From a virus (taxonomy: Duplodnaviria > Caudoviricetes), in IMG/VR virus record IMGVR_UViG_3300035497_000412: 64,000 bases of DNA; one strand, written 5' to 3'. The notes beneath the pieces are model-generated. The model ran no database searches and was not told the origin of the DNA. It saw nothing but the letters and a program-made list of their open reading frames with translations. This document shows positions 2,200 to 63,900 of this stretch, piece by piece. Position 1 is the stretch's first letter, and each line of letters opens with the position of its first letter. Made by a program: the position numbers and the translations under genes.

Positions 2200-2889
2200 T
2201 GGCTACTGTTATTCGATATACTAATACTGAACCTCATTGCTATGAGCCTTATGTTGGTTCAGATTTTGCGGCTGGAGCCGATCTCAAGGCAATTAGGGAT
2301 TATACAATTAATCCAGGAGAGACAGTTATGGTAAAAACTGGAATCGCAATTGAGGTTCCTACTGGTTATTTTGGTGGAATCTTTGCGCGAAGCGGTTTGG
2401 CTACCAAGAAGGGTTTGCGGCCAGCTAACGCGGTCGGTGAATAATTATTATTTCGTTGTAATAACGCCGACTTTAAATTGGGTAAAATCGGTGAAACCTT
2501 CCAAAATTTATATAGGTAATACCGAGGTAAGCAGTTAGATAGCGTAAGGCTAATTGCCACCGTAGAGCGTAGAGGGTGAATAAATATAACCCCTCCAAGA
2601 GTACCCAACACGAAAGTGAAAATGTACGCCGAACTTATATGATGGTAAAATATAAGAACTAAAGGATAAAAAGCCTTTAGGGTAACAAATGGTTATTGAT
2701 TCAGATTACCGTGGAGAGCTTATTGTGGCGCTTCATAATGACTCAACAGAGCCGCAAACAGTTGAAGAGGGAGAGCGCATTGCACAGCTAATTATCATTC
2801 CTTATCTCCCTGTTTCTTATCATCACGTGGATTCTCTTTCCACTACTGTCCGTGGCGCAGGCGGATTTGGTTCAACTGGTACTAAGTAA
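2199..2889 (+). CDS. dut: Trimeric dUTPase, split by a group I intron (exons 2199-2438 and 2692-2889)
   Basis: AAGADL, ARSGLA, spliced motif NAVG|VIDSDYRGE, ERIAQL and RGAGGFGSTG. Confidence 0.95.
2439..2691 (+). ncRNA. Group I intron in dut (253 nt, no ORF)
   Basis: 5' exon ends GTCGGT, pairing with IGS GCCGAC (U.G); ATAAC pairs with 3' exon GTTAT (P10); P7 GCGTA/TACGC; ends in G; removal restores dUTPase motif III in frame. Confidence 0.9.
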
Positions 2890-3374
2890 TGAAGCTTTTA
2901 TCATTAGACTAGAGTAGCCACACTTCTGGATATGCAATTTTTTCAGATGAAAATTTGACTTCATATGGAAAGTTTACTTTCAATGATACGGACATGGGTA
3001 TTAGATTGAACAAAATCCGCAAGAAAGTAAAAGAATTAATCGAACAAAACAATATTGATACTATTGTCATTGAAGATATTTAGCTTCAAGGCAATGTTAC
3101 TAATAACGTATAGACTTTTAAAACTTTAGCAGAAGTTTTTGGAGTTATCTATGAATTGACTACTGATATGAATATTCCATGTAGTTGTGTTTTAGCCAGT
3201 TCTTGGAAATCTACTCTTGGAATTAAGGGAAAAACTCGTCCAGAACAAAAACGCAATGCTCAAAACTTTGTAAAAACTACTTATAATGTTTTAGTCACTT
3301 AGGATGAGGCTGATGCTATTTGCATTGGGTGCCACACGGTTAAAAAAAATTTAAATTTCAATTGGACTGATTAA
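2889..3374 (+). CDS. ruvC: RuvC-like Holliday junction resolvase (4 in-frame TAG=Gln)
   Basis: With TAG=Q: MKLLSLDQSSHTSGYA, IEDIQLQ, VQTFKTLAEVFG, WKSTLGIKG, TQDEADAICIG. TAGs at 2910, 3081, 3111, 3300; absent from the ORF track. Confidence 0.85.
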
Positions 3375-3410
3375 AATAATTTGCATCTTCTGATTTTAAA
3401 GAAATTAGAG
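3364..3410 (+). promoter_or_regulatory. Putative phage late-promoter motif
   Basis: GGAC-N9-TAA-N14-TTTTAAAG; one of ~9 copies before late units. Confidence 0.5.
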
Positions 3411-3424
3411 GGAGGTGCATTGTC

Positions 3425-3856
3425 GTGTTGACTTTTATAACTGAACACGTCATAAGTATTGTTATGACTTTGATTTCCGCAGGAGCTTTAGCATTTTGTA
3501 AATATATGCACAGCAAAATGAAAGGATATCAAGCCGTCGTCCAGAAGCAAGAGCGAGAAAAGTTAGATGAAACTATCATAGCCCACTTAGAGCCAATTGA
3601 AAAAGAACTTGATGAACTGCGCCAGTGCATTAAAGAAATTGACGAAAAGGGCGACCTTCATATGAGCTTAATTCTTTCTTCTTATCGTTATAGATTAGTT
3701 TAGTTGTGTAGGGAGTATCTTCGACAAGGATTTATAACGCAAGAATAGTATGAAAGTTTATCTGATTTTTATAAGGTATATGAAGCTCTTGGAGGAAATG
3801 GATAGGCAAAGGAATATTATCATAAGGTAATGGAATTAGACATTCGTGATAAATAA
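3425..3856 (+). CDS. Membrane protein, holin-like (N-terminal TM, coiled coil, YEALGGNG C-terminus)
   Basis: ORF 3425-3703 extends through three TAG codons to TAA at 3854-3856; GGAGG RBS. Confidence 0.65.
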
Positions 3857-3858
3857 AA

Positions 3859-3900
3859 AATAAAGGGGAGACTTAATTAAAAGTCTCCCCTTTATTTTTT
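3859..3900. terminator. Bidirectional rho-independent terminator
   Basis: TAAAGGGGAGACT / AGTCTCCCCTTTA hairpin flanked by A and T runs between convergent genes. Confidence 0.85.
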
Positions 3901-4283
3901 TATTCACTTATTTTTGTCATTATGCCTGAAATTTTCTTAGACATATATTGTTTTTCTTCAGCAGAAGCTAATGCAATCATATCCATAATTTCTTCAGAAA
4001 TTTCGTGTAGATCATGCTCTAAAGCGTTCATTGTTAAGGCTTTGTCCATATGTTTTTCTTTGGCTTCAATATAAGAAGTCATATGATGTGGAGTGCCCTC
4101 TTTTTCAATGTAATAACTGTCGTCCATAGCTTTCCGAATAGAATGATAATACATAGCTTCTTCTAAATCTTTAATCATATCAATAACTTCTCCCATCTCT
4201 TGGGTATCTGCGTCCTCAAGATGAGCGAGTTGTTCTTCAGCACTGCATTCTAAAATTGCTTTCATGCGTCTCATTTTTTCCAT
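3900..4283 (-). CDS. Hypothetical helical protein (gene 5 of five-gene module)
   Basis: 127-aa ORF, GGAGG RBS, E/M/H-rich helices (EMGEVIDMIKDLEEAMYY). Confidence 0.8.
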   Translation of the reverse strand: MEKMRRMKAILECSAEEQLAHLEDADTQEMGEVIDMIKDLEEAMYYHSIRKAMDDSYYIEKEGTPHHMTSYIEAKEKHMDKALTMNALEHDLHEISEEIMDMIALASAEEKQYMSKKISGIMTKISE

Positions 4284-4297
4284 TGATTAAACCCTCC

Positions 4298-4717
4298 TTA
4301 GGCGACTCTTTCAACGATTAAATTTGCATTCTGCACACTAATGTTCTGAGTCCCTACATTCATAACACTAACTTGAGAACAACATCCACGAGGCACATCA
4401 ATAAAGATGGTGGATGCTACATTATTAAAATCATTTACTGCGCCGGGAGTTGAAATCATTTTTGTTGAGGGAACTGCTTCTCCGTCAATGGCAATTGCCA
4501 AAGACGAAGGTCCAACAGTACCTCCAGTAGGAACAGCAATATTTGCTCCAAAGGTTACACGGAATCTTGCGCGACACTGTTGCGTTAGTCCGCGTAAGGT
4601 TACTAATCCACTACCAGTTCTATGAATCATACTACAATTGCCATCTACAACAGTTGTAGTAAATAATACGTCCTGGTTAGCAGCGACTGTCTAAACAGCT
4701 ACACTTGTAATTTCCAT
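4298..4717 (-). CDS. Beta-rich protein, C1q/BclA C-terminal-like (gene 4 of module)
   Basis: Start extended through one TAG to ATG 4717 (MEITSVAVQTVAANQDVLF), AAGGAG RBS; alternating beta pattern and a CC pair. The fold call is inference. Confidence 0.65.
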
Positions 4718-4736
4718 AAATCAATTCTCCTTTTTA

Positions 4737-5739
4737 TTATGCGCCGCAGCCGCAGCCTGTTCCTCCATAAGGATAAGCCGCATAAGGTGAAGCGGTTAAA
4801 TAAGCAGGTTGTGGAATTGGACGAAGAGTATTCACCAGATAAGCGTTCTGAGAACACTGAGACAGCTGGAAGTTTGCGCCAAGTAGTTCAGTATTCTTAG
4901 CTTCTAAGCGATCGCGCAGGTCCTGCATAGTGTTAGAGTTAATTAAAGCACGAGTGCGCTCGCCCTCCTGATGAATCGCTTCTGTAATGTCGCAAGTGTT
5001 CTGCGCAGCCGCATAACGGTTCTCCATGATAGCGGAGTTAGTACGGCAACAACAATCTTGCTGAGCATAGCGATTTTCAGCAAGATTTGAATTTACTGTA
5101 TTAAAGCCCTGCGCCACAGAGCTGAAACCAGTACACAGATCACGTTGTAAACCATTAAAGTTGTTCAATAAAGTTGTGTTGTTGGCATAGAATCCATCAC
5201 ATAGACCCTACTGAATTCCACGAACGCCATTTTCCACTTGCTGGAAATTCATATCTTGACTAAGGTCAGCTCTAGTTAAAGCTCCCTGTGCGGCATTATT
5301 GCCCCACCCATTATTACCATAGCCCATAAACATGAATAAAAACAGTATGATTATCCCAAAATTGTTATCGTAAAAGTTTTTTATCTTTTACTTCTATTAC
5401 TTCTTATTTGTAATAGTTCAGCATATCTTTTCAGCTATAGAAAAGTATAAACATAAAAGTTTAAAATCTATAAGAATGTTCTCGAATAGTTGTCGCGGAC
5501 TCTTGGGTAGATTATATCTTCTCACTACCTATGCGTTGCCCCTGACTGCGGTCACCGCAGCCTTCGGTTCTGATTCCCATCTCAGGGTTCCAGCTTAATT
5601 CCGCGATTATTCGATATGAGTCACCTCATAAAGTGGCAGACATCTACCAAGCGCCAGAGTTTCCACCGCCAAAACCTTCTGCTCCAGAAGCGGCAGCAAT
5701 ATCGGATAAAGAATATCCACCTGTAGAACTATTGAACAT
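4737..5739 (-). CDS. Gly-rich/TM/coiled-coil Cys-rich protein (gene 3 of module), split by a group I intron (exons 5739-5646 and 5356-4737)
   Basis: Spliced product MFNSSTGG...NSGAW|WIIILFLFMFMG...GIQQGLCDG...QQDCCC...GCGCGA; one in-frame TAG; GGAGG RBS. Confidence 0.8.
5357..5645 (-). ncRNA. Group I intron (289 nt, no ORF)
   Basis: 5' exon TGGT pairs with IGS GCCA; P7 GCATA/TATGC (R GGCAACGCATAG, S AAGATATGCTGAACT); ends ...AACAATTTTG; splicing rejoins T|GG = Trp. Confidence 0.85.
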
Positions 5740-5773
5740 AAAAATGTCCTCCTTTAATAAAAAATATAATATA

Positions 5774-6007
5774 TTATTTAATCCCAAGCTATTGCTTGAA
5801 GGAATTAAATGCTTCATCAAAATTTACGCCTTGTTGTTGACATACATTGCGCGCCACTTGTTCAATGCCAGCTCCATCATTATGTTGAGCCATATTTAAC
5901 AAGTTTGCGGCAATTGGGTTATTAGCTTGCGTTTGTAGCAAATTAATAACTAATTGTTGAGGATTTTGTCCCTCTCTAATCATTTGAAGGAATTGCATTG
6001 GGTTCAT
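5774..6007 (-). CDS. Small Gln/Asn-rich helical protein (gene 2 of module)
   Basis: MNPMQFLQMIREGQNPQQ...; reads through one TAG to TAA at 5774. Confidence 0.75.
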
Positions 6008-6031
6008 CTTTTAATAGCCTCTTTCCCATCA

Positions 6032-6403
6032 TTAAAATTGCGCAATAGGAGTCGTCTAGGGCTAAGGCTACGCCAATGATTCTTTAAGAGAGTTAATTGT
6101 ATTTTCAAACTCTTCTCTAGTAATAAAAGACGAAGTGCTGATAGGCTAATCTGTCGGAATCTCTTTTAATTCATACATATTGAAGGATGATGTTCCATCC
6201 ATATTAATCTATTTAGTATAAATTCTGCGGTTAGCTAAATCAGGAAAATAAAACACTGACCCATCAAAATCAATTGAGGTAGCTTTAGCTTCATCTAACG
6301 AAGCTACTGGACGCCCTTTCAGCATGGTTGACTAATAATAACTATACGGAGCTGGGCGCATCATCTATTGCTATTGTTGAGGATAATTATAGTTCTGATA
6401 CAT
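6032..6403 (-). CDS. Gln/Pro/Tyr-rich protein (gene 1 of module)
   Basis: Open only with TAG=Q: MYQNYNYPQQQQQMMRP...LKGRPVASLDEAKATSIDFDGSVFYFPD; the poly-Q run is coded CAA CAA TAG CAA TAG; AAGGAG RBS. Confidence 0.8.
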
Positions 6404-6439
6404 ATGTATGCTCCTTTCATACAAAAATCTTTCCTTTCC

Positions 6440-6557
6440 TCTACATAAAGATATAGAAATTTTAAAGGACACTTTTTCTCATTTTGTCCTAAAAATTTTT
6501 CCTTTATCTTTCATAGATACCTGTAAATTTTAATCGAATCTTTTTCCTGATTTGTCC
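6440..6557 (-). promoter_or_regulatory. Two tandem copies of the putative late-promoter motif
   Basis: GGAC-aaatcagga-AAA-N14-TTTAC and GGAC-aaaatgaga-AAA-N14-TTTCT upstream of the five-gene module. Confidence 0.5.
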
Positions 6558-6569
6558 CAAAAAAAAATA

Positions 6570-6615
6570 AAAAAAAATAAGGACGATACTGTTTAAAGTA
6601 TCGTCCTTATTTTTT
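6570..6615. terminator. Rho-independent terminator
   Basis: ATAAGGACGATACT / AGTATCGTCCTTAT hairpin with A/T tails after the holin-like gene. Confidence 0.85.
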
Positions 6616-7006
6616 ATTTATCGGTCTTTTCTTTCTTAACCGTAGCTTCAATAATATTAGTAATTAAAGTCTCCAAGTCACCGACCGCCGCAGATAAATA
6701 TTCCTTAGCATCATCGTTTAAAATATTTAGTACAGCGTTTAAAGTTTGCCGAAATGCTTCTTGTTGAGCAGCTTCATCAAAATTATTAGATTCTTTAATG
6801 CTATCGACGTATGTTTGATTAGTGGCAATAACGCAATCGGTTACTGTATTAGTCAGCATTGTCATATATTTACTTAAAGTAGTATTATCAATATTTGATT
6901 GAATTTCTTGACTCTTGGCATTAATCCATTTAACCAAGAAACCTGTTAAAACTCCCAATAGAGGAATAATACAAACTTTAATAATTTCAGTAATTAATTC
7001 ATCCAT
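6614..7006 (-). CDS. Putative holin (single N-terminal TM, LL-H-like)
   Basis: Hydrophobic N-terminus (CIIPLLGVLTGFLVKWI), soluble helical C-terminus (ATNQTYVD); last gene after the tail fibres. Confidence 0.55.
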   Translation of the reverse strand: MDELITEIIKVCIIPLLGVLTGFLVKWINAKSQEIQSNIDNTTLSKYMTMLTNTVTDCVIATNQTYVDSIKESNNFDEAAQQEAFRQTLNAVLNILNDDAKEYLSAAVGDLETLITNIIEATVKKEKTDK

Positions 7007-7020
7007 ATTTTAATCCTCCA

Positions 7021-7845
7021 TTACCGTACTTTAATCCAAATGCGGCCATCCACTTTTACAGGAGCACGACTTTCATTTTCGTCTTTCCAATACTCATATT
7101 CCGGCACACAAGATACCGTACCAACAATGCGGTCCGGCCATTGAATTACCTCTTCTCTAGTCATCTTTGACACTTTTCCATCTGGACCAGAGCAAACGCA
7201 GTCGCCAGCCGCAAATTCATTTCTATCTTCATAAGTATGGACTAAAACTCTTCCTGTAACAGCAATTGGAGTATTTGCCTTTTCAGTCTTACCAATAGCA
7301 AAACCGTAAGTATCTGAGGAGACTCCAGCAAAAGGCTGAAGTCTCTCAGTAGATTTCATTAGGCGATCATTATTACCATCTTCAATTAGTACATAACCAC
7401 ATTCTTTATTATCTATGTTAGATTCTCTATATTCTGCATAATCATTCCATGCAGCTCCATATAATACATTACTAGACATATATACAGAAGACTCACGATA
7501 TATACTTTGATTTCCTGTTGATGTAGCTCCTAAAACATATATTTTACTAGAAGTATCATTGTTAATATATGCTTTCGTGGCGGTGGCAGCGTTGCCAGAA
7601 ATATTGCAAGTCCCGGTAGAATTTTTAATAGCAAAAGGTCTAAGACTGTTGTAATCGCCATATGGATCGTCTGCATCTGTTAATAATATATATGTAGCGT
7701 CTCCATCGTTTCTTACAATGACACCATATGAACCCGACACAATTCTAATAGCATTAGTGCTAATTGTCTAAAGAGTTCCACTAACAGTGGCGCCATTCAA
7801 TAAAGAAGTATTTCCACTTACCGTTAAATCTTTGAGAGAAGCCAT
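7021..7845 (-). CDS. Tail fibre tip protein with C-terminal intramolecular chaperone-like (peptidase G2-type) domain
   Basis: Start ATG 7845 via one TAG; fibre motif YGVIVRNDG...NSLRPF; C-terminal WNDYAEY...PIAVTGRV...GDCVCSG. Confidence 0.65.
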
Positions 7846-7869
7846 GCAACCCCTCCTTTTTTTTATTTT

Positions 7870-7898
7870 ATTATATCATAATTTTTTAAATTAAGCAA
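7870..7898 (-). promoter_or_regulatory. sigmaA-type promoter inside the late region
   Basis: TTGCTT-N17-TATAAT with extended TG, upstream of the gene starting at 7845. Confidence 0.6.
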
Positions 7899-10800
7899 AC
7901 TGGAATTCCAAACAATTATCAGTTGTGTTAAACACTAAAGTACATCCTGCTGTAGTGCTACCGCCATCAACTTTAACACTCTTGGCACTAACTTTATTGG
8001 CAACACTAACTCCGCCTTTAACAACGACAGCAGCAGAAGTATAAGTTGAATAACTACTATCTGTCGTCTTACTAAAGGTAGTTATACCCGAGAAAGTCTT
8101 ATTGCCAGCTAGAGTTTGCGCTCCTGTGGTAACAACGCCAGACGCGCTAGCCGCAGCGCTCGGAATAGCGGCAGTCTTTGTAGTTCCGCCAACAGTGGCG
8201 CTAAGAGTAGGTCCAGCAGTAGTTCCAGCAGTCCAAGAAAGCGCAGTAATTGTAGAAGAGGAAGTAGTTGTACAAGGAGTTAACACACCGTTATTCAAAT
8301 AAACAGGTACTGACTCAGAACCAACTGTCGCAGTGCTGTCAGTGGGCACACCAGCCTTTAGATACCAAAGAGTTTCTTCTCCGCCTTTAGTTGAAGTATA
8401 AGCGCTAACCGCATTAGTCCCAGAATAGTAAGTTAAAGCATTAGCTGTAGTAGTACTATTAACCGTTGCGCTTAATGAGTATGTACAAGCAGCAGGGACA
8501 CCCGCATTCCAATATACGGGTCTAGTAGCACTACCATAGGTGTCTGCTGTACCAACGTATAACTTACTCCATCTGACGGAACTAGTACCAAGAGAATAAG
8601 TAGCAGTCGCGGAAGCCACAATATTGCCTGCAAAAGTGCCAGCGCCATTAACGTAACTTGTTCCATTCACATATAGGGTATAAGAAGGAGCAGAAGTACT
8701 ATTAATTGCTACAGCTGTGCTACTAATATAGTGTGAACTAGCGCTAAGCACACTAGTAGAACTAGGATAGTAAATTCTATTAGCTGTGAAACTGGTTAAG
8801 CCAGTACCACCATAAGCAGTTCCAATAGTTGTAGCGTTCCAAGTGCCACCTTTAATTGTTCCTAGATAAGCAAGATTAGAAGATGTACCAGAATAAGCAC
8901 CATTCCAATAAGCCATCATCGAAATATCTGGTACATAATCGTTATTTGTACCCCATCCAAGTGTACTTACAGATGTGGCAGATTTAATTCCAGGAACAGT
9001 GCGGCCGGTACAAGTAGTAATTGTGCCGCTCTTTAAATAAACAGGAGTAGTAGTACTACCGATCGTACTACTACTTTCAGTAGGAACACCCGCATTTAAG
9101 TACCATAATTTAGTTCCGCTACCTTTTGTAGAAGTATAAGAACTAACAGCATTTGTTCCACTGTAATAAGCCAAAGTCCCAGATGTGCCAGAGTTAATGG
9201 TAGAACCAATAGAATAAGAACAAGCTGTAACTTCTCCATTACTATTGACATATACTGGAGTAGAACTGCTACCTACAGCAGTTTTTGGGCTTGCAGTAGT
9301 AATTACTTCTTTCCAATCTTGCCAAGTGCCTGCCTAAGCATTTCTAAAGTAAATACGTTGAGCAGAATCAGTACTTATAGCAAGCTAACAGTCCCAACCA
9401 GCAGTACTATCCCAGTTCATTTGTAAAACATTTGAGTCACTTGGAGCAGCGTTAGAAGTGGTTGAAGAAGTTGACAATAAATGGAATAAGCTTCCAGCTC
9501 CGCCATAAGCAGCAGCCTTATTTAAATCAGATGTAGTCTATCTAGTTTCGTAAAGTTTAAGCTTGGTCGCAGTTGCTGCATTACCAGTATAGTTACTAGC
9601 ATTAATATATTTACTAGTGCTAGTACCAAGATAAATTGTTCCTCCGCCCACTTGAAGGTTTCCGCCGGTTTCCACTAAGTTACCATCTTTATTTAAATAG
9701 AGTTTATTAGAAGTAGTTCCATTCGTTTTAGCCATAATTCCAAGGCTATCAATAGTTACATGATATCCACTGCTATCACCAATTAACACTAAACCAGAAC
9801 CACTTGTTGTTACACTAGCACTACTAGCGGTAGTGCTATTAAAAGTTGTAACTCCATTAAAGGTTTTATTTCCTCCAAAAGTCTATGTACTAGCAGTCAC
9901 AACACCGCCATAACTTTCACTAGCGCTATAAAGAGTTAAAGTTTTAGTTGTTCCACCAATTGTAAGTTTAATAGTTGGCCCTTCATCAGATGCTACCGTT
10001 TGAAAAAATGTAGTAAATAAACTAGAATAGCTATCACAAGAAGTAAATTCTCCGTCTTGTAAATAGACTGGCCGTGTTTCACTACCTATTGTGTGAGTAC
10101 TTTCTGTGGGCACTCCAGAAGATAAATACCATAAATTTAAGCCATTACCAGCAAAAGAAGTATAGGGGCTAATCTCATTCGTCCCAGAATAATAAGCTAA
10201 AGCTCCGACTTTACTGGCACTATTAACAGTAGAGCTAAGTGAATAAGTACAGGCCGCAGGAACTCCATTATTCCAGTATACAGGTTTAGTTGCGCTACCG
10301 TATGAGTCAGCTGTGCCTAGATAAGCTTTACTCCATCTATAGCTAGAAGTACCAAGAGAATAAGTGTTAGTAGTAGAAGGAGCGATATTTCCAGCAAAAC
10401 TCTTAGCACCAGCAAAAGTCTATGCGCCAGTCGTCACAACGCCACTTGCGCTCGCACTTGCGCTCGGCACGGCAACCGCAGAACTAGTACCTCCAGTAGT
10501 TGTAATCTTTAAAGTAGGCCCAGCGGTAGTTCCACCAGTCCAAGTAACAGAAGGTGTGGTAAAGCTTCCATGACTAACCGCAATTTTACCATCAGTCTAG
10601 GTGACTTTTGATACATAACCACTTACGCTATCACTCACATCAAGAGCGTTTATTAAACCAGCTGCTGTTCCTTTAGTGTCATAACTACTTTCAGCGCCTA
10701 ATAGTTCCCACCAAGACCCAGTCCAAACATACTCTCCATTACCACTACTGTCAATAACAACATCACCAGTAATAGGAGTGACAGAAGAACCATTAATAGT

Positions 10801-12240: not shown

Positions 12241-12269
12241 TTAAACGCTCCTTTCTTTCTAAAATATAA

Positions 12270-24537: not shown

Positions 24538-24551
24538 ATTTTTCCTCCTTA

Positions 24552-53395: not shown

Positions 53396-53920
53396 TTATC
53401 CCAACTTGGTTAAAACATCTTTTAGCAAACTCATATTATCAGGGTCTGCTAACTTTTGCTGGATTGAACCAGCATCTAAATCAAGATTGCTATAATCTCT
53501 AGATATTGAATCTAAAATCCCCAGCGCAGAGTTACGATACTTATAGATTTCTGTAATAGAGTCATGCACCGCCGCAATTAGATCACCATATTCATCTCTA
53601 GGGATCACCGCAATAATCTGATTATAAAGTCCAGTCCCAATTAGCAGATCATATAGCTTACAAGGGTCTTCTAACTGCTTCTCTGTAAAGGAAATATTAG
53701 TATAAAAATCTACTACCTCCAAAGCAGTAAAAATATCAATCTTTACTGGATTTATAAAATTGTTATCATCCTGAGACTTATTTACTACGTTAGAAATCAG
53801 CATAAGCTTATCATTAACGGGAAGGTAACATTTTACTTCGATATTCTAATCATTCCAGGTAATAGTCTCAACTTTTTGGTTCTTTGTTAAACCAAGCTTG
53901 GTAAATGAAACTTTAGACAT
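53396..53920 (-). CDS. Hypothetical protein, possible tail assembly chaperone
   Basis: Start ATG 53920 (MSKVSFTKLGL) through one TAG; position immediately before the TMP. Confidence 0.65.
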
Positions 53921-53952
53921 AAGTTTCCTCCTTTTACTCTTTTCTTATGGGT

Positions 53953-53981
53953 ATTATAACATAATTTTTTTAGTTTGTCAA
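53953..53981 (-). promoter_or_regulatory. sigmaA-type promoter inside the late region
   Basis: TTGACA-N17-TATAAT with extended TG. Confidence 0.8.
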
Positions 53982-55045: not shown

Positions 55046-55069
55046 TTATTTTCCTCCTTTTTCTCAAAC

Positions 55070-55113
55070 TAAAAAAAATAAAAGGGGAGAGATATTTTCT
55101 ATCTCTCCCCTTT
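55070..55113 (-). terminator. Terminator after the tail tube gene
   Basis: AAAGGGGAGAGATA / TATCTCTCCCCTTT hairpin with T tail. Confidence 0.85.
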
Positions 55114-55123
55114 CTTAAATTAA

Positions 55124-56439: not shown

Positions 56440-56467
56440 AGTATATATTTTCCTCCTTATTTGTTAA

Positions 56468-57196
56468 TTAATGAATATTTTTCATCCAATTGTCCGGCTT
56501 ATCGTCAGGTTTACCACCAGCCAAACGAGATCGAATATCAATATCCCAATTAATATATAGCGAGTATCTTTCAACTAAATCATATAATTGGTAAAGAGTT
56601 AGATTTAAACAATCTTCCAGAGACATAGAATTTAATCCAACTGTCAAAGTTGATAGATACTAACTAAGTGAGCTTGCGGCCGAGCTTCCTTTTTCTGCGG
56701 CAACTCTTTGCTAACCCCGCATAATTTTCTAAGCTATTCTAGCAGCTTCCTCATTTGCAGGATTAAAACCTTCCTATCCCATAGGTCCAGAGTTAAAACA
56801 GAATATTTCTTTTAATGCACCCTAAAATATATCAAAATTAGTATCATCCAACATAACTGATTCACTATTCTCTTGGCTTAACATAATAGCCCTTGGCGTA
56901 ACTAACATTTTATATTCAGGACATACTAATTTAAAGACTTCCTCTACCGCATTCTTTTTATCTCTTGTCTCTTTCTATGACATTATCGTCATTAATATCT
57001 AAAAATTGGTTGCTTCTGATAGAACTATTTCGTCCTGAGTAAACATAGTTTTATTAACACATAATGTTTGCGCTCCTACGAAAAAAGTCTATTCTCCAAT
57101 TAAAGCAATTTCTTTTATGCGAGGCTAATGAAGAACTATTTTGCATTCTGGAACTGGAATATTAGTTCCAGCCATTAAGGCTAATCGAATATCCAT
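56468..57196 (-). CDS. Hypothetical morphogenesis protein (242 aa)
   Basis: Open only with TAG=Q: MDIRLALMAGTNIPVPEC..LHQPRIKEIA...LTLYQLYDLVERY...WMKNIH; absent from the ORF track. Confidence 0.75.
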
Positions 57197-57786
57197 TATT
57201 TTTTGGAATTAAATAAATCATTAAAATCAGCCAAATATTGTTCTTCATTCTGCGGGTTCGGCTAACCCTTTTTATCCTCCTCGCCATGAACTGCGTTATA
57301 CAACAAACACAAACCAGCAAATTCATCAGTTAAAACCATTTGAGTCATTCCAAGAAATTTTAAAGTTCCGATTCCTGTTAAACGCTTATCGTTAAACATT
57401 GTATCAATTTCAGCGGCAATCTTGTAAGGCCGCAATTCAAAATCTCTCATTGGCCACTAATCAAAATGGCAAATAATGTCAAACTCAACAACGTTATCTC
57501 TAAATTCTGGGTTTTTAGCATTTGGAGTAAAATTATCAAAATTTACAATGATATAATTTAATACATTTTTATCAACAACCAACTTAGGAACATTTTTAAT
57601 GTTTTTATTAATAAGACTCAAACTTTGATCTTCTGTCAAATTTGGCTTATCTAAACAATCCTTAGTTGTATAATAAAGCATCTTTTTTAGCCTGTTATTT
57701 TTAAGCATCTTATCAACAATGATACTCATATCTTTTTCAATTGATAAAAAACTAGATTCAGGCCATTGATATTTTTCAATCTTCAC
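57196..57786 (-). CDS. Tail completion/terminator-like protein
   Basis: ORFs 57457-57786 and 57262-57450 joined through TAG (ICHFDQW); position in the head-tail block. Confidence 0.65.
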
Positions 57787-57805
57787 AGCTAATCTCCTTT
57801 AACTC

Positions 57806-58864
57806 TTAAAACAAAGACTCTACCACTATAACTTTTGTATAAGGCCCGTATGATAACTCAAACTGTCCGCTATAAGAGGAAGTCCAAGTGATCGATATTG
57901 TTTTATCTTTAATTGACTCAATCTTTACAGGATATTTTTTATTATCTATAGTCCAAGTACTCTTAATATTACCCTTATATTCAAATGTATAACTCTTTTT
58001 AGGTTTAATAAAGGTTTCACCCTCTATTTTATTATTCACTTTCTCAGAGTTAGGGGCAATTGGCTTAGTGATCAAATTACCAGCCAATACGCCATCATCT
58101 TCAGTTTCATTTGCATAATATTCTTCCGCATTTACTTCCAAAATACCAGGCATGCTTAAAGAGTCAACGGCCTCAACTCGCCAGCAAATATTTGTATCTC
58201 CGTCTTCAATGCCAGTTAAATAAAATTTACTATATCTTTTAAAAAAAGACAAAGTGTCTTTATTCTTAGGCATTAAAATATTTAAACTGAAATTAGGAGT
58301 ATCAACACTGATAGTATGCTTTTGAATATAATTAATCTAAGTCTCTACTGGACCTCTTAATGCGCAATAAGTGCTATGTAATTCTCCATCATCATCCAAC
58401 CACTAAATCTGATAGGAACAACGACGAATATTACATCTAAAAAAAGCTAATTCTGTTAATTCTTGTAAATAACAGAGCCAATAAGTATTTGTACCAAGCC
58501 ATTCAAAAACTGAACCTGGCTAAAAGTTATATTCATATCCTACAGAAAGAATTTTCTCATCATAATCCTATTTAACCTTATCTGGATTAATTAATGCCTT
58601 AACGGGTTCTTTGTCTTCGGCATCCACGCGCACAATTTCTGCGGCTTGGAAAGAAAACCATACTGCATGATCTAAAGAACGGCGTTTATCTTTTATCATT
58701 CTTTCCTACTATAGATTACCGCCATTTTCTAAAAAATGAATAGACTACTTATTTACACCTTCTAAACTTCCCGTTGGATTAAAAGGCTTTTTCCCATAAA
58801 TTCCTAATCTTCCCTACATAAGTCTATACGGATGTTTACTACTTAAATCATACCCGGACGCCAT
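57806..58864 (-). CDS. Head closure/neck protein (~352 aa)
   Basis: Start ATG 58864 with many TAG=Q, in frame with ORF 57806-58273; position after the head-tail connector. Confidence 0.65.
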
Positions 58865-59162
58865 GAGAAATCTCCTAAAGCAAACTAATAGATTCAAAAA
58901 CTGTTTTCCTGTATAGTTCAAAACTTATGTCAGGTTTTATTTGTAAGCCTTCAAGCTTACTAAGCATCTATAAAAATTGCGGAGTATCAATAAAAATTTC
59001 ATTCAACCCCGCAATTTCAATAATAACTGTATTTAATTGTCGAACCCAATCTTCTTGATGTTCACGCATTGGAATTAATTTCCAAAGTTGGTTTGTTAAG
59101 CGCTTCACATCTTTATCTAAAATTTCTATCGGAATATCAAAATTATATTTAGTCAATAGCAC
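58848..59162 (-). CDS. Hypothetical protein (head-tail region)
   Basis: ORF 58968-59162 extended through two TAGs to TGA. Confidence 0.7.
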
Positions 59163-59730
59163 TAGACTCTCTTAAAATTGACCAATTGGAAGAATACATT
59201 CCATCTGTCAATTTTCTCCTTTTATAAAGTCTTTGCATATGAAACTAATCTCTGCGGGACTCCTCTAAAAGAGTCAAAAGTTTAGACAAATGATTTGCTT
59301 GGCTAGTCATTTTAAAATCCGCATTAGTATATTTCATTCTTGTATTCTCGATAGAAGTAACTTGACGCTGAACCCAACTCTATTTCATAATACACGCCAA
59401 GATATTAATTTCTTCTGCGGTTAGCTCTGCCGCAAAATAAGATCGGTCAACTGTAACTTTAGGAATCTATGTTGCGTCTTCTGGATCGATTAAATCTCCC
59501 CAAATTGTACCTAAGATAAAATCATCAGGTAACACATCTGTTTCATCGATTTCTTCAACCTAAACAGTATAATCATAAAGATTTTGCCTAGGAAATTCGA
59601 ACCCTGGAATCGCATCAATTAATAAGTTCTATAAATCTTTAATGGTATCTTCTGGAGTTAACTCCATATACATATCATCGGTAATTTTCTCAAGAAAGCG
59701 ATTATATACAGTAGCAAATAACGTCTACAT
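59149..59730 (-). CDS. Head-tail connector/adaptor-like protein
   Basis: MQTLFATVYNRFLEKITDD (codon 2 = TAG)...LTAEEINILA...FKMTSQANHLSKL; absent from the ORF track. Confidence 0.7.
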
Positions 59731-59754
59731 CTGTTCTCGCCCCCATTTCAAAAA

Positions 59755-60291
59755 TTATTCAGTAGCAGAATTTACCACTTTATAATTAGTAGTTGTTCTA
59801 CGAGCCGTAGTAGTAGTAGTAGTTGTAGAAGCATCCTCATCATTCTTATCAAGAGCCGCATTAGCAATAGCTGTGCTAACATCAAAGCCAGTCTTTTCCT
59901 TTAAAGCATCTCTTTTAGTGATGTCATTCAAAGGAAGAGAAATCGCATACTTCTTAATTAAATCAATCACACCAACAGGCGCAAAATCTAAGCAGTCCAG
60001 AAAAGCTTCAAGAGAACCGCTAGTCAGCAGCTCAACGATCTGCTCCTCAGACATATAATATTCATTTTCAGTATGAACGTTCAGATTGTTTGTAACAGTC
60101 TCATTCATAATCTGAAGGAAATTAGCCATTAAAGAACGTCCGCCAGCTTGATAAGAAAGCTTTTCCAGCTCGTCATAAGAAATCTTCTTAGACTCACCGG
60201 GCGCAAACTCTCTACGGATACCCAGCTCAGGAATCCGATAAACCACCATGCTAGCGCTTCTATTCTTCACATTATAAGTCTTATTATCCAT
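59755..60291 (-). CDS. Hypothetical protein downstream of the capsid gene
   Basis: 178-aa intact ORF with AAGGAG RBS. Confidence 0.8.
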   Translation of the reverse strand: MDNKTYNVKNRSASMVVYRIPELGIRREFAPGESKKISYDELEKLSYQAGGRSLMANFLQIMNETVTNNLNVHTENEYYMSEEQIVELLTSGSLEAFLDCLDFAPVGVIDLIKKYAISLPLNDITKRDALKEKTGFDVSTAIANAALDKNDEDASTTTTTTTARRTTTNYKVVNSATE

Positions 60292-60314
60292 TTAAAAAAT
60301 CTCCTTTATCTCTT

Positions 60315-60357
60315 AAAAAAAATAACGGGGAGAAGAGAAGCTATTTCTCTTCTCCCC
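60315..60357 (-). terminator. Terminator after the major capsid gene
   Basis: GGGGAGAAGAGAA / TTCTCTTCTCCCC hairpin with T tail. Confidence 0.85.
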
Positions 60358-60384
60358 TAACAAAAGCCTTATTTAAAAATAAGA

Positions 60385-61494
60385 TTAAGCCTTCACACTT
60401 CCGTCGAGACGACCATCATAGGTAGTGACCTTACCAGTCACACCATCCAGATGCCAAGTGTCAAGATCACCCATCAGGGCGGTATCAACATAAGCACAAA
60501 TGTTGTTGCTCAACATACAAACGACGCCAACCTTCTTATAAACTTGCATCTCACGAGAACGGTCAGCATTAGTAACTTCATCAACTAAAGTGCCACCCTC
60601 GAAAGCAATCTTCACAGGCTTATTATCAGCGCCAGTAGGAATAATCCAAGCATAGCCGGGGTCAATGACCTTGCGACTGTTGGTTTCATCCTCGAAGCCC
60701 TGCTCAAGAATAATGACCTTATTACCCTTGTAGCTAGCAAGACGGCCAGTATTCCACAGCTCAGTCTTCATGGCCTCAGTATAGCGCCAAGCTTCCTGAG
60801 GAATCATCTGCACAGCAAACTCATAAGTGCAATAAATAGTAGGAGTGCCATAAGCAGCAGCAATAGTAATCAGCTTATCAAAAGCAGCTTCATCAAAGCC
60901 AGTGGCAGCAACACGGTTGGCAGGGGGCAGTTGGTTGATAGAAGCTTTCAAGGCAGCGCCAACTTCCTTATAAATCAGCTCATCCATACCCTCCATAATA
61001 ATCTGAGTGACCTCAGCGAAGTCCACACGACCATCAAGGAACTCTTCAAAACCAATCTGAGCGGCGCCACCAATAGCAGAAGTACGGACCTCAAAGGCTT
61101 CCTCGCCCTTGCTCAGCTTAAAAACTTCATAACGACCATTCAGACCAACGCGAGTCACAAACTGCTTAGCACGCTTGTTAGAACCCAGCTTGCGGCGGAA
61201 CAGAGGTTTATCGCCCTGAGCAAAAGTCTTAACCTCAGCAAATTGATCATACTGCTCAACAACCTTCTTGGGCAGCACATCATCCAGAACTTCCTCAATA
61301 ATAGAGAAAATCAGATTCTTATTCTCGCGATACAGAGAAAAAGTACCAGCCAGCTCATTAAACTCCTGGCGCAGAGTCTCATTCAGAGCCTCATAACTAA
61401 GATTCTGACCATTAAAGCTATAAGCAACAGGAGCAGAAGGCTTGGCTTTAGCACACTGCTTTGCTAAAGCAACTAAATTAGATCTATCCAGCAT
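60385..61494 (-). CDS. Major capsid protein
   Basis: 369 aa, strong high-expression codon bias, no TAG; follows the protease/scaffold and head protein genes and precedes a terminator. Confidence 0.8.
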   Translation of the reverse strand: MLDRSNLVALAKQCAKAKPSAPVAYSFNGQNLSYEALNETLRQEFNELAGTFSLYRENKNLIFSIIEEVLDDVLPKKVVEQYDQFAEVKTFAQGDKPLFRRKLGSNKRAKQFVTRVGLNGRYEVFKLSKGEEAFEVRTSAIGGAAQIGFEEFLDGRVDFAEVTQIIMEGMDELIYKEVGAALKASINQLPPANRVAATGFDEAAFDKLITIAAAYGTPTIYCTYEFAVQMIPQEAWRYTEAMKTELWNTGRLASYKGNKVIILEQGFEDETNSRKVIDPGYAWIIPTGADNKPVKIAFEGGTLVDEVTNADRSREMQVYKKVGVVCMLSNNICAYVDTALMGDLDTWHLDGVTGKVTTYDGRLDGSVKA

Positions 61495-61512
61495 TATTCT
61501 TCTCTCCTTTCA

Positions 61513-62295
61513 TTAAGCAATACGCATAATCTTAACGCCGCGCTGATGGTCAGGCATGGTATAAACCTTAACGACCTGCCAAGTCATCTTATCGTCCTCA
61601 CCAGGCTCAAGAATACCCTTCTCGCCAACCTTCAGAGTATCACCAACAGAGAGACTATCGGCATTAATAGTGTTAGTAGTGAAAATATCGCCCACATTGG
61701 TCTTAAACACGCGGGGCACCATGGTAGTGCCAGCAGGCATTCTCTGGGGCTTGTAAGGACCTTCAATATGGAAAGGATCCTCATTGTAATGGATCTCATA
61801 CATATCAGGACCAGCAGTCACATCATCATACGCATAAGTCTTCTTGGAATCGCCATCACCAATAGAAATCTCAGAATTACCATCAGCGTCAACACCATTG
61901 TAATAACGAGACTGTCTATCCCAAGCAGTATCAAAATCAGCGGTAGGATTACCATCCTTATCCAGACCAAATCCAAAAGGACTATACAGACGCGCCTGAT
62001 AGTCATCCTTCTTCAGAGCAAACTCGCAATCCATCTGCTCTTCACGATACAGTTTAATCTCATTGTAAACGAGCATCCACTCGCCCTTACCAGTAAAGTT
62101 AACTAAGCCAGAAGCATAATCATACTTCACGAACTGGCCTTGCTCCAGAACATCAATATCTGCGGCAGCGGGCAGCTGGGCATAAATCTGAGCAGTTCTT
62201 TGAGCAGACAGATGGTTAGGCTCAACCTGGCCATAGCCATACTCAACATAGCTAGCCTGACTAGTGATATGCTTCTTTAAAAAATCACTAAGCAT
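61513..62295 (-). CDS. Head structural protein (decoration/cement-like)
   Basis: YGQVEPNHLSAQRTAQIYAQLPA; between scaffold and capsid genes; no TAG. Confidence 0.7.
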   Translation of the reverse strand: MLSDFLKKHITSQASYVEYGYGQVEPNHLSAQRTAQIYAQLPAAADIDVLEQGQFVKYDYASGLVNFTGKGEWMLVYNEIKLYREEQMDCEFALKKDDYQARLYSPFGFGLDKDGNPTADFDTAWDRQSRYYNGVDADGNSEISIGDGDSKKTYAYDDVTAGPDMYEIHYNEDPFHIEGPYKPQRMPAGTTMVPRVFKTNVGDIFTTNTINADSLSVGDTLKVGEKGILEPGEDDKMTWQVVKVYTMPDHQRGVKIMRIA

Positions 62296-62319
62296 TTATA
62301 TTTTCCTCCTTAATTATTT

Positions 62320-63900
62320 TTAGTCTAAGTTTTTCGCAACAGATAAAGCTCTCTTAACCCAAGCGGGCATTGCAGAGTCATCATCATCATTCAGGTTAAA
62401 AGTAACAGGAGCTTTTTGCTCAGTCTCTTCGTCAAGACTAAAATTAACCTTATTGCGAACACAGATAATAGAGAGTTTAGCCTCAATATCATCTAAAGAA
62501 TAAGTATCAATATTTGAAACGACATCTTCTTTATCTTCATCGGAAAGCATATAGAAGCTACTAATCATATCTTCCTTTTGCTTGCGCTCGACCTGTTTTT
62601 TAAACTCGGTCAAAGGAGCAATCTAGCTCTCAAGATTCTCTTTTTCAATCTTTAAGGCACTATACTCCTTCTGTAAAGTGGTATACTGTGAACACAGCTC
62701 GACATACTCAGGAATCTCTTCCAGTGAATATTTCTTCTCTTTACAAGTGCATTCATCTAAAGGTTTGCCGCATTGGGGGCAAACTTCTTCTTCATCTGCT
62801 TTCTCTTCGGTTTGTTCATCGCCATCGTTTTCAGTATCTTTACTGCTCTCTGATTTATCTTCAGTTTTCTTCTTATCATCTTCATCAGCTTTGTCCTAAT
62901 TTTTTTTATTAGCATAATAAGCTTCAACATCAGCTTCAGCAAACTGAGGAGCTTCCTCGTTTTTGGAATAGATGCTAGTAATTTCGATAAGAGTATCTTC
63001 TGGAACGAATTCTTCATTCTCACTAAGAGCAAAATTTAAACGATAATATTTGTCTTCGGCATTTTGGTGCAGGACCGCAAACTTCTGTCCTTCTTCTTCA
63101 CAAACGCTATCAATACTATAAGTATCAGCAGGTAGCTTAGTATCAATGTAATTATCAATACTATTCCAAATATTATCACCAACAGAAACAGAATACTTTG
63201 CTAACACTTTCATTCCTCCTTCTTTTAGAATTTCTTTCAGCTCTTTCATCATTGAATAAAGTTCCTACTTAAAACCTTCATCAAGAGAAAATTGAACTGT
63301 CGGAGCAGTAATGTTAGCCCCTTCAAAGCAAGGCTCACACTCTTCTCCTAAGATACAAAGTTTTGAGATAATTGCTTCATTAATAATAAAAAACTAAGGT
63401 TCTTCTTTATTACCGTTTGACCAATCAGCCTATAAAGTTTTTTCATCTAATTCCATAGATTGATTGTTGCCATGTTCAATAATACGCTGGCATTCTGGAT
63501 ATTGCGACGTCCATAGCCATCCCTCAGTCATTAAATATTCATGTTCAACTTCATTATCATCTAAAAAAGTCTAAAACCAAGTTTTCGCATTTAAATCAAC
63601 AAAACCATAAGGCTTTGTAGTATCCTTAACCTCGAATTCGCCATTAGAGATATCAATAATACGATTATGTTCTTCAAAATCTTCTTTTGCTTCATTATAA
63701 AAACCAACAATCGCAGCACCTCTAAGACTTGGCGCCATTTGTTTAGCAACTTCTTTAGTGATAACACTACCATTTCGATTTGGCTCATCGCCCACATAAC
63801 ATACCTTAATGGTACATTTAGAAATTAAGGGGCTGTAATTAGAAGGAGCCACATCAATTAACTCTACTCCAGAAACTGGAATACTAGTATGTTTTGCCAT
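62320..63900 (-). CDS. Prohead protease / scaffold (~526 aa)
   Basis: Fragments joined by TAG; NRNGS.I, PYGFV, EGWLW..QYPE, QSMEL and LCILG...EPCFEGA motifs, then an acidic coiled-coil scaffold. Confidence 0.8.

What the first reader, a model, noticed from the sequence alone, without database searches (positions are those of the whole stretch)
2889..63900. Genome-wide TAG-to-Gln reassignment (genetic code 15)
Seen: dozens of ORF fragments end in TAG and continue in the same frame. TAG falls where Gln is expected (LDQSS, EDIQ, YFQQG, VRQY, KFQRG, and a CAA CAA TAG CAA TAG poly-Q run), and gene ends traced are TAA/TGA. Established: TAG=Gln recoding occurs in gut phages infecting standard-code hosts. 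It hides whole genes from the ORF track. No suppressor tRNA or release factor gene was seen in this window.
Basis: partly seen in the sequence, partly recalled or inferred. Interest (0 to 1): 0.75.

Follow-up and report, generated by a model that had tools for sequence, protein, structure and literature searches.

The report
Gut phage reads TAG as glutamine

Summary
Reading TAG as sense raises cover by ORFs of 300 aa or more from 0.33 to 0.72. Reading TGA as sense gives no gain. ORF fragments fuse into a tidy virion module, including a 2827-aa tape measure protein with 65 TAGs.

TAG means glutamine. In 14 standard-code relatives, TAG sites align to Gln in 37% of cells against a 4% background. 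Of 17 conserved TAG sites, 14 are Gln.

TAG use is not even. The late module holds 228 TAGs, which is 27% of its Gln codons. The early arm has almost none. The most abundant virion proteins have none, and this holds across about 60 recoded relatives. TAG is never a genuine stop.

The phage is a siphovirus distantly related to the published code-15 phage phAss-1 and to standard-code Enterococcus phages. Its host is probably a gut Clostridia species.

The genome has no release factor gene and no GlnRS. Its only tRNA(CUA) is split between U35 and A36 by a 224-nt group I intron (genome 113,932-114,245). Metatranscriptome contigs show circles of this intron family.

The recoding itself is already known, so this is a new member of a known kind. 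The scan had already reported the split suppressor tRNA, in this genome and in others.

The parts
1715..64000 (-). TAG-recoded late (virion) module. It runs on beyond the window's right-hand end.
   Evidence: ORF cover and fusion under TAG=Q. 228 in-frame TAGs in 21,019 late codons across the genome.
62320..63900 (-). 526-aa virion gene with 6 TAGs, at the portal position. It is a homologue of an EF1 gene upstream of the capsid gene.
   Evidence: phrog_3313, E 1.7e-39. tblastn match to Enterococcus phage EF1.
61513..62295 (-). 260-aa gene with no TAG, at the scaffold position.
   Evidence: TAG share of Gln codons is 1% in 56 recoded relatives.
60385..61494 (-). Major capsid protein, 369 aa, no TAG. 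Its Gln codons are 11 CAG and 3 CAA.
   Evidence: 52% identity to Phage Phass-1 and 43% to Enterococcus phages. Bacillus phage homologues are annotated as major capsid protein. Codon counts.
55639..56439 (-). Virion structural protein, likely the major tail protein. 266 aa, no TAG.
   Evidence: phrog_2729, E 5.7e-47. 173 relatives in IMG/VR. TAG share 1% in relatives.
53978..55045 (-). 355-aa late gene with 12 TAGs, which is 71% of its Gln codons.
50820..51704 (-). HNH homing endonuclease gene with 7 TAGs, inside the late module.
   Evidence: phrog_559, E 1e-38.
41664..50147 (-). Tape measure protein, 2827 aa, 65 TAGs.
   Evidence: phrog_4211 (tail length tape measure), E 2.1e-23. C-terminus 42% identical to the EF1 homologue.
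36778..41553 (-). 1591-aa tail-region protein, 18 TAGs.
31233..33626 (-). 797-aa tail protein, 6 TAGs.
   Evidence: phrog_32343 and phrog_1887 (tail protein). EF1 homologue.
15314..22714 (-). 2466-aa virion protein, 4 TAGs.
   Evidence: phrog_14959, E 2.1e-52.
7891..12240 (-). 1449-aa protein, 10 TAGs.
6032..6472 (-). 146-aa ORF with 8 TAGs. It holds the CAA CAA TAG CAA TAG run at 6365-6379.
2889..3374 (+). RuvC-like resolvase gene with 4 TAGs. In the EF1 homologue, three TAGs align to Gln and the fourth to a gap.
   Evidence: PF02075, E 1.2e-5. tblastn match to EF1.
99..1678 (+). Three TAG-free ORFs at the start of the standard-code-compatible early arm.

Best explanation
The window is the late (virion) arm of a roughly 155.8-kb siphovirus from a gut metagenome that decodes TAG as glutamine. 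Early and replication genes on the other arm contain almost no TAG, so the host's standard translation apparatus can read them. That arm also carries a tRNA cluster. One gene in the cluster, at genome 113,932-114,245 outside the window, yields a tRNA with anticodon CUA after a 224-nt group I intron is removed from between U35 and A36. This tRNA is presumably charged with glutamine by host enzymes, and it competes with host release factor 1 at TAG, so that the late genes are read through. TAG supplies 27% of the Gln codons in late genes. It is kept out of the most abundant virion proteins (capsid, scaffold-position gene, major tail protein), which suggests that suppression is incomplete and costly. 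Shown here: the recoding, its meaning (Gln), its distribution, the split tRNA gene, and the nature of the intron. Inferred: charging by host enzymes, competition with RF1, the timing of expression, and the host (a gut Clostridia species).
For: - Coding density under different stop sets, for the window and for the whole genome by region.
- Codon-level alignment of 134 TAG sites to 80 IMG/VR relatives: CAA 916, TAG 662, AAA 463, GAA 387, CAG 231. Gln is the best-fitting profile, with log-likelihood -2.57 against -3.07 for Lys.
- In 14 standard-code relatives, 36.9% of cells at TAG sites are Gln against a 4.0% background. Of 17 conserved sites, 14 are Gln.
- In the early arm, 79 ORFs end in TAA (60), TGA (15) or TAG (4). 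At least three of the in-frame TAGs on that arm lie within or between matched domains: NrdD, PIN-PhoH and NlpC/P60.
- The spliced tRNA is called tRNA(CUA) by ARAGORN. It shares its anticodon arm, long variable arm and G73 with the intron-less tRNA-Sup-CTA of Phass-1 and of relative G004.
- Rfam RF00028 scores 54.5 bits against a gathering threshold of 50 (E 7.6e-13). U35 sits in the P1 U-G pair, and a G precedes the 3' exon.
- An RNA contig joins the two predicted ends of the neighbouring tRNA-Leu(UAA) intron exactly. Another contig wraps around the suppressor-type intron.
- No RF-1 domain and no GlnRS/GluRS domain is found in the genome.
- The contig ends overlap by 144 nt with 142 identical, so the genome is probably closed.
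Against: - There is no peptide evidence that Gln, and not another residue, is inserted at TAG in this phage.
- No RNA contig shows the ligated exons of the suppressor tRNA. The contig that wraps the suppressor-type intron is only about 94% identical and so comes from a relative.
- The tRNA has a long variable arm, which is unusual for tRNA-Gln, and pairwise similarity to the phage's own tRNAs does not settle its identity.
- TAG sites are less conserved than ordinary Gln sites (27-37% Gln against 42% self-conservation of Gln), so the amino-acid call rests on enrichment, not on identity.
- CheckV rates the contig 91% complete, so a second, plain suppressor gene cannot be fully excluded.
Confidence: 0.93

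Rival explanations
1. TAG is read as sense but as another amino acid. Candidates are serine, leucine or tyrosine (because the suppressor tRNA has a class-II-like long variable arm and G73) or pyrrolysine (ARAGORN's label for any CUA anticodon).
For: The tRNA has a 20-nt variable region and G73. ARAGORN prints 'tRNA-Pyl(cta)'. Lys and Glu are the next most common residues at TAG sites.
Against: Ser is only 5-6% of the residues aligned to TAG, which is below its background of 7.3%. Leu is 3.6% at TAG sites in standard-code relatives, and Tyr is rare. Gln is enriched ninefold, and 14 of 17 conserved sites are Gln. Lys and Glu are the usual substitutes for Gln. The tRNA has a normal GG D-loop, a normal T-loop and a long variable arm, unlike tRNA-Pyl (the features of tRNA-Pyl are from my own knowledge). 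The authors of the phAss-1 paper report that tRNAscan-SE indicated Gln for that phage's tRNA-SUP-CTA (PMC10607447).
Confidence: 0.04
2. There is no reassignment. The TAGs are real stops in decayed genes, or they are assembly or sequencing errors.
For: None beyond the fragmentation under table 11.
Against: Only TAG interrupts the frames, never TGA. The interrupted genes are essential virion genes conserved over their full length. 62 of 80 relatives from many samples show the same pattern, often with TAG at the same sites (662 cells). A matching tRNA(CUA) is encoded.
Confidence: 0.01
3. The group I intron in the suppressor tRNA is a purpose-built timer. The genetic code switches only when the intron splices, so splicing gates late-gene translation.
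For: The CUA anticodon exists only after splicing. The complete genome G051 also has the split gene as its only tRNA(CUA). Introns of this family are excised in gut metatranscriptomes.
Against: The closest complete relatives, G004 and G006, and Phass-1 carry intron-less tRNA(CUA) genes. The intron is a homologue of the one in the adjacent tRNA-Leu(UAA) gene and sits in a near-identical target sequence (YU|AAAA). One copy (L233) carries an HNH homing endonuclease ORF. Only three split copies turned up in IMG/VR, against more than 116 intron-less anticodon arms of this type. The capsid gene and other abundant late genes have no TAG and so would not be gated. All this fits a mobile passenger.
Confidence: 0.1

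Closest known systems
Phage phAss-1 and the proposed Phassvirus group (OQ749652; Int J Mol Sci 2023, PMC10607447), filed by NCBI under 'Caudoviricetes code 15 clade'
   Same: Gut siphovirus-like genome of 130-160 kb. TAG=Gln mainly in virion genes and a few DNA-metabolism genes. Phage-encoded tRNA(CUA) with the same anticodon arm and long variable arm, next to tRNA-Leu(UAA). No aminoacyl-tRNA synthetase gene. Clostridia host predicted. Related to standard-code Enterococcus phage EF1.
   Different: Capsid protein identity is only 52%, so this is a distant relative and not a member of that genus. phAss-1 has three intron-less suppressor genes by its authors' count (two are annotated in the stretch I fetched). 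Here the single suppressor gene and the tRNA-Leu(UAA) gene are both split by group I introns.
Stop-codon-recoded gut phages of Borges et al. (bioRxiv 10.1101/2021.08.26.457843), especially the 'Agate' clade (about 154 kb, Firmicutes hosts, mixed codes)
   Same: Recoding is concentrated in structural and lysis genes, with a standard-code-compatible replication module. Close relatives use different codes: 62 of 80 relatives here are TAG-recoded and 18 are standard or nearly so, of which two may be TGA-recoded. A homing endonuclease gene is itself recoded.
   Different: Membership of 'Agate' could not be tested because no reference sequences are held. No release factor gene is present. Abundant virion proteins are TAG-free across the clade.
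crAss-like phages with code 15, validated by metaproteomics (Peters et al. 2022, PMC9523058)
   Same: TAG is read as glutamine in late genes of gut phages.
   Different: An unrelated lineage: podovirus-like phages with Bacteroidota hosts. No proteomic evidence exists for the present phage.
Group I introns in tRNA anticodon loops, classically tRNA-Leu(UAA) of cyanobacteria and plastids (Rfam RF00028)
   Same: A self-splicing-type intron in the anticodon loop. The 5' exon ends in a U paired with G in P1, and a terminal G precedes the 3' exon. The phage's own tRNA-Leu(UAA) carries one at the classical U34|A35 site.
   Different: In the suppressor tRNA the intron sits one position further on (U35|A36) in a tRNA that reads a stop codon. 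I found no paper describing this in the searched library. Other reports of this scan have noted it.

Membership tests
TAG-to-Gln recoded phage (NCBI translation table 15 usage) | In-frame TAG in conserved genes, and full-length ORFs restored only when TAG is read as sense | tested here: met
   Cover of ORFs of at least 300 aa rises from 0.325 to 0.719 with TAG as sense and stays at 0.326 with TGA as sense.
TAG-to-Gln recoded phage (NCBI translation table 15 usage) | TAG positions align to Gln in homologues | tested here: met
   Gln is 36.9% against a 4.0% background in 14 standard-code relatives. 14 of 17 conserved sites are Gln. The Gln profile fits best.
TAG-to-Gln recoded phage (NCBI translation table 15 usage) | TAA and TGA are kept as stops, and TAG is not used as a terminator | tested here: met
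   ORFs tile the DNA with TAA or TGA ends. Only 4 of 79 early ORFs end in TAG under code 11, and at least three in-frame TAGs on that arm lie within or between matched domains.
TAG-to-Gln recoded phage (NCBI translation table 15 usage) | Phage-encoded tRNA with anticodon CUA (common but not universal in such phages) | tested here: met
   The anticodon is present only after removal of a 224-nt group I intron. No plain tRNA(CUA) was found by ARAGORN or Rfam.
TAG-to-Gln recoded phage (NCBI translation table 15 usage) | Peptides with Gln at TAG positions | not testable with these tools
   No proteomic data are available.
Proposed genus Phassvirus (phAss-1, BK046881, BK025033) | High intergenomic nucleotide identity (about 80% or more among the three members, PMC10607447) and shared synteny | tested here: not met
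   Capsid protein identity to Phass-1 is only 52%. blastn of the tRNA locus finds nothing in GenBank phages. This phage is a relative of the wider monophyletic group, not of the genus.
Group I intron (Rfam RF00028) | Score at or above the family's gathering threshold with the core helices | tested here: met
   54.5 bits against 50 for the suppressor-tRNA intron. The tRNA-Leu intron scores 28.1 bits (E 6e-5). Compensatory changes in the P7 strands among nine homologues, judged by eye on the alignment.
Group I intron (Rfam RF00028) | 5' splice site after a U in a U-G pair of P1, and a terminal G before the 3' exon | tested here: met
   alignment (exon GGUCUCU paired with intron UUGGACACC) and (intron ends ...GTAAG).
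Group I intron (Rfam RF00028) | Excision observed in RNA | tested here: inconclusive
   The end-to-end joint is exact for the tRNA-Leu intron (L003 2008 to 1745; predicted ends). For the suppressor-type intron a contig from a 94%-identical relative wraps within 3-5 nt of the predicted ends. No ligated-exon contig was seen.
tRNA-Pyl / pyrrolysine decoding | Atypical tRNA-Pyl body (small D-loop without GG, short variable loop) and TAG aligned to Lys-like positions | tested here: not met
   The tRNA has a GG D-loop, a TTCGAAT T-loop and a 20-nt variable region. TAG aligns to Gln. The features of tRNA-Pyl are from my own knowledge.

The most novel reading that the evidence does not exclude
TAG works as a two-level translational control in this phage clade. 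Splicing of the group I intron in the only tRNA(CUA) gene sets when TAG becomes readable. The density of TAG among Gln codons sets how much of each late protein is made: 0-3% in capsid, scaffold-position and major tail genes, against 17-48% in low-copy tail and accessory genes, conserved over about 60 relatives.
Probability: 0.12. Interest if true: 0.8.

Novelty: new member of a known kind. Interest (0 to 1): 0.42.

Why it matters
The recoding itself is known biology, and a published relative (phAss-1) already shows it. Its practical weight is for annotation. Under table 11 about half of this phage's virion module is invisible or fragmented, so such contigs must be called with table 15.

Two side results go further. 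First, the "missing" suppressor tRNA of a recoded phage can be a gene split by a group I intron, which standard tRNA finders mislabel or skip. This bears on published statements that some recoded phages lack suppressor tRNAs (PMC10607447). Second, TAG is systematically excluded from the most abundant virion proteins across the clade. That fits costly, incomplete suppression better than a simple all-or-none gate on late genes.

Tried and rejected
- An exact 17-mer of the 5' exon-intron junction found 12 IMG/VR stretches. None is a tRNA, so all are chance matches.
- blastn of the split tRNA gene against GenBank phages gave only short generic group I core matches.
- The two published recoded relatives said to lack suppressor tRNAs (BK032759, BK051641) are not in the held collection, so I could not test whether they hide split genes.
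- Pairwise similarity of the spliced tRNA to the phage's own tRNAs does not tell Gln from Ser or Leu identity.
- Pfam gave almost no labels for the virion proteins.
- ARAGORN with lowered thresholds and introns gives hundreds of false calls and was not used.
- The three RNA runs hold only 5-9% of the sampled words of the tRNA locus. They showed no ligated exons and cannot show the level or timing of expression.
- The exact 13-mer of the intron-less anticodon arm is present in only 12 of 50 relatives. This says little, because other anticodon stems occur.
- Reading the 73-76-nt insert in another tRNA as a hidden CUA anticodon was rejected: no splice choice gives CUA.
Full report
**Observation.** Under table 11 the window yields 51 ORFs of at least 100 aa, most of them short fragments on the minus strand.
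- With TAG=Q the fragments fuse into long, abutting minus-strand ORFs: 2827 aa (65 TAGs), 2466 aa, 1591 aa (18), 1449 aa (10), 1266 aa (7) and others.
- Cover by ORFs of at least 300 aa is 0.325 under code 11 and 0.719 with TAG as sense. With TGA as sense it is 0.326. With TAA as sense it is 0.428, a rise expected from fusing neighbouring genes in an AT-rich genome (35.8% GC).
- The quoted poly-Q run is at window 6365-6379, minus strand.
- No tRNA gene lies in the window.

**Where the window lies.** It is bases 2977-66976 (reversed) of a 155,986-base IMG/VR virus contig that CheckV rates 91% complete.
- The two contig ends overlap by 144 nt with 142 identical. The assembly most likely closes into a circle of about 155.8 kb.
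- Across the whole genome, the gain from reading TAG as sense is confined to genome 150-156 kb plus 1-66 kb. The 66-150 kb arm is equally open under code 11.
- An ORF map with TAA and TGA as the only stops shows plus-strand late genes from 149,967 through the contig ends to 65,262, carrying 228 in-frame TAGs in 21,019 codons. That is 10.8 per 1000 codons and 27% of all Gln codons.
- The minus-strand early genes are nearly free of TAG.
- Of 79 early ORFs of at least 100 aa under code 11, 60 end in TAA, 15 in TGA and 4 in TAG. At least three in-frame TAGs on that arm lie within or between matched domains: NrdD, PIN-PhoH, and an SH3 + NlpC/P60 lysin.
- TAG therefore seems never to be used as a genuine terminator. 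The reassignment is genome-wide in meaning, but its use is strongly skewed to late genes.

**What TAG encodes.** I aligned the window's read-through ORFs, with X at every TAG, to 80 related IMG/VR loci fetched with the TAG-free tail protein gene. I then read the codon opposite each of 134 TAG sites.
- The commonest codons are CAA 916, TAG 662, AAA 463, GAA 387 and CAG 231.
- Gln makes up 26.8% of the non-TAG residues, against a 3.6% share among the aligned query codons.
- The TAG row fits the substitution profile of Gln best, with mean log-likelihood -2.57. Lys gives -3.07, Glu -3.14 and Ser -3.41.
- In the reverse direction, our Gln codons face TAG in relatives 6.7% of the time. No other residue exceeds 1.5%.
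- 62 of the 80 loci are themselves recoded and 18 are standard-code or nearly so.
- Restricting the count to 14 non-redundant standard-code relatives gives Gln at 36.9% of cells (background 4.0%). Of 17 TAG sites that are conserved in those relatives, 14 are Gln.
- The distant standard-code Enterococcus phage EF1 gives the same picture on a small sample (Lys 9, Gln 7, Glu 7 and Ser 1 of 58 sites). In the RuvC-like gene at window 2889-3374, three TAGs align to Gln and the fourth to a gap.
- Serine, which the shape of the suppressor tRNA might suggest, is not supported.

**What the phage is.** It is not crAss-like.
- The capsid protein (window 60385-61494) is 52% identical to that of Phage Phass-1, 43% identical to Enterococcus phages EF1 and VRE9, and 26-28% identical to large Bacillus siphoviruses in which the homologue is annotated as major capsid protein.
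- The 2827-aa protein matches a tape measure family.
- Phass-1 is a published 136-kb gut phage with TAG=Gln. NCBI files it under 'Caudoviricetes code 15 clade'.
- The early arm encodes NrdD, a DnaE split by a GIY-YIG/NUMOD3 endonuclease gene, gyrase A and B, an NAD-dependent ligase, RecJ, helicases, an RNA ligase and two SH3-bearing lysins.
- The closest genomic homologues of the amidase lysin, at 50-74% identity, are nearly all in Clostridia (Oscillospiraceae, Lachnospiraceae and others). That is a hint about the host, not proof.

**The code-change machinery.** The genome holds no RF-1-domain gene and no GlnRS/GluRS-type domain. ARAGORN and the Rfam tRNA model find Gly, Thr, Gln(UUG), Ile, Ser, Glu, Leu(CAA), Leu(UAG) and a weak Pro, but no plain CUA anticodon. 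With introns allowed, ARAGORN reports two class-II-like tRNA genes with inserts of 222-264 nt and gives them implausible anticodons.
- *Splice site.* For the gene at genome 113,932-114,245, the 5' exon ends ...GGUCUCU. The insert ends in G, and the 3' exon begins AAAACCGU. Joined, the loop reads CUCUAAA, so the anticodon is CUA. ARAGORN then calls a 90-nt tRNA(CUA).
- *Homology.* The spliced sequence shares its anticodon arm, D-loop, long variable arm and G73-CCA with the intron-less tRNA-Sup-CTA of Phass-1. The close relative G004 carries an intron-less tRNA(CUA) of the same long-armed kind. This fixes the splice junction independently.
- *Nature of the insert.* It scores 54.5 bits on Rfam's group I intron model, against a threshold of 50 (E 7.6e-13). 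The alignment places U35 in the P1 U-G pair that marks a group I 5' splice site.
- *The neighbour.* The adjacent gene (113,208-113,558) is tRNA-Leu(UAA) with a homologous 264-nt intron at the classical U34|A35 site.

**RNA evidence.** Three animal-gut metatranscriptome runs hold small parts of this locus.
- In one run a contig joins L003 position 2008 back to 1745 with no spare letters. These are exactly the first and last bases of the predicted tRNA-Leu intron. This is what a full-length excised intron circle would give.
- Another run has a contig that wraps around the suppressor-type intron within 3-5 nt of the predicted ends. It is only about 94% identical, so it comes from a relative.
- No contig shows ligated exons.
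- These are assembled contigs from RNA libraries. They support excision of this intron family in nature, but they give no information on timing or level of expression.

**Passenger or switch.**
- Relatives usually have the intron in tRNA-Leu(UAA) and an intron-less tRNA(CUA) beside it.
- The two closest complete relatives, G004 and G006, have plain tRNA(CUA) genes.
- A scan of IMG/VR for the intron's 3' end followed by the suppressor exon found two further split suppressors. One (L233) has a 681-nt intron carrying an HNH ORF. The other (L232) lies in a complete 160,883-bp TAG-recoded genome, where it is the only tRNA(CUA).
- More than 116 contigs carry the intron-less anticodon arm.
- The target sequences are nearly the same: CUU|AAAA in tRNA-Leu and UCU|AAAA in the suppressor tRNA.
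- Together this points to a mobile intron that has hopped into the neighbouring gene, not to a built-in timer. The side effect is that the suppressor gene is hidden from annotation pipelines.

**Uneven use within the late module.** The scaffold-position gene, the capsid gene, the next gene downstream (window 59755-60291), the major tail protein candidate and window 22858-24537 have no TAG at all and prefer CAG. Neighbouring genes use TAG for 29-71% of their Gln codons. In about 60 recoded relatives, the first four of these genes use TAG for 1-3% of Gln codons, against 17-48% in their neighbours. This conserved avoidance in the most abundant proteins fits incomplete, costly suppression. It also means that recoding does not block the translation of these genes, so it cannot act as a strict gate on all late genes.

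**Comparison with what is known.** TAG=Gln in gut phages with standard-code hosts is established (Borges et al. preprint; Peters et al., PMC9523058; phAss-1, PMC10607447). This phage is a new and distant member of the phAss-1-related group, and it resembles the 'Agate' size class and host phylum of Borges et al. I found no paper on intron-split suppressor tRNAs in the searched library. Earlier reports of this scan describe the same thing in this genome (e1-5762089) and in at least 20 others. I reached the same result independently before reading them, and I add the RNA circle junction and the intron-less state of the nearest complete relatives.

**Verdict.** For the recoding itself, this is a new member of a known kind. 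Interest is moderate and rests on the side results.

Noticed in passing
G000:C1:113932-114245 (minus strand; outside the window, L003:2417-2730): The only tRNA(CUA) gene of the genome is split between U35 and A36 by a 224-nt group I intron (Rfam 54.5 bits). ARAGORN mislabels it Leu(aag). Two more split copies occur in IMG/VR (L232, L233).
   Followed up: yes
G000:C1:113208-113558 (minus strand; L003:1693-2043): tRNA-Leu(UAA) with a 264-nt group I intron at U34|A35. A metatranscriptome contig joins its two predicted ends exactly, as a full-length intron circle would.
   Followed up: yes
G000:C1:117865-118009 (minus strand; L010:1501-1645): A tRNA gene with a 73-76-nt insert in the anticodon loop, too short for a group I intron. 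The spliced anticodon could be UGU or UUU. Relatives have inserts of 68 nt and 455 nt at the same place (L095, L096). An earlier scan report reads it as a tRNA-shaped intron in tRNA-Lys.
   Followed up: partly
G000:C1:117107-117195 (minus strand; L010:743-831): A tRNA-like element with the T-arm before the D-arm. It matches Rfam YrlA (Y RNA-like) at 39 bits, below the gathering score of 69.
   Followed up: no
window 55639-62295 and 22858-24537: The capsid, scaffold-position and major tail genes and two other late genes have no TAG and prefer CAG. For four of them, about 60 recoded relatives use TAG for 1-3% of Gln codons, against 17-48% in neighbouring genes.
   Followed up: yes
G000:C1:70276-76135: DNA polymerase III alpha (DnaE) is in two pieces, PHP plus N-terminal part and finger plus HhH part, with a GIY-YIG/NUMOD3 homing endonuclease gene between them. 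The genome is rich in introns and homing endonucleases.
   Followed up: no
G000:C1:68383-69660: The NrdD ORF covers only profile positions 1-270 of 562 and has an in-frame TAG inside the domain. The rest of the enzyme must be encoded separately, so the gene is split.
   Followed up: no
G000:C1:1-144 and 155843-155986: The contig ends overlap with 142 of 144 bases identical. One difference is CAA against TAA at the end of an HNH ORF, so the population is polymorphic for that ORF's stop codon.
   Followed up: partly
G051 (L237-L245), 1-20 kb and 40-50 kb: In this complete TAG-recoded genome, reading TGA as sense also raises ORF cover (0.26 to 0.54, 0.44 to 0.72, 0.49 to 0.75). This could be chance or a second recoded codon.
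   Followed up: no
L066 and L087 (IMG/VR relatives): These structural modules have no in-frame TAG, but ORF cover rises with TGA as sense (0.83 to 0.96 and 0.80 to 0.92). They may be TGA-recoded relatives within the same clade.
   Followed up: no
L233:3997-4768 (minus strand): The split suppressor tRNA of this relative has a 681-nt intron that carries an HNH endonuclease ORF. The stretch I read shows TAG triplets within and next to that ORF; whether they are in frame was not checked.
   Followed up: no
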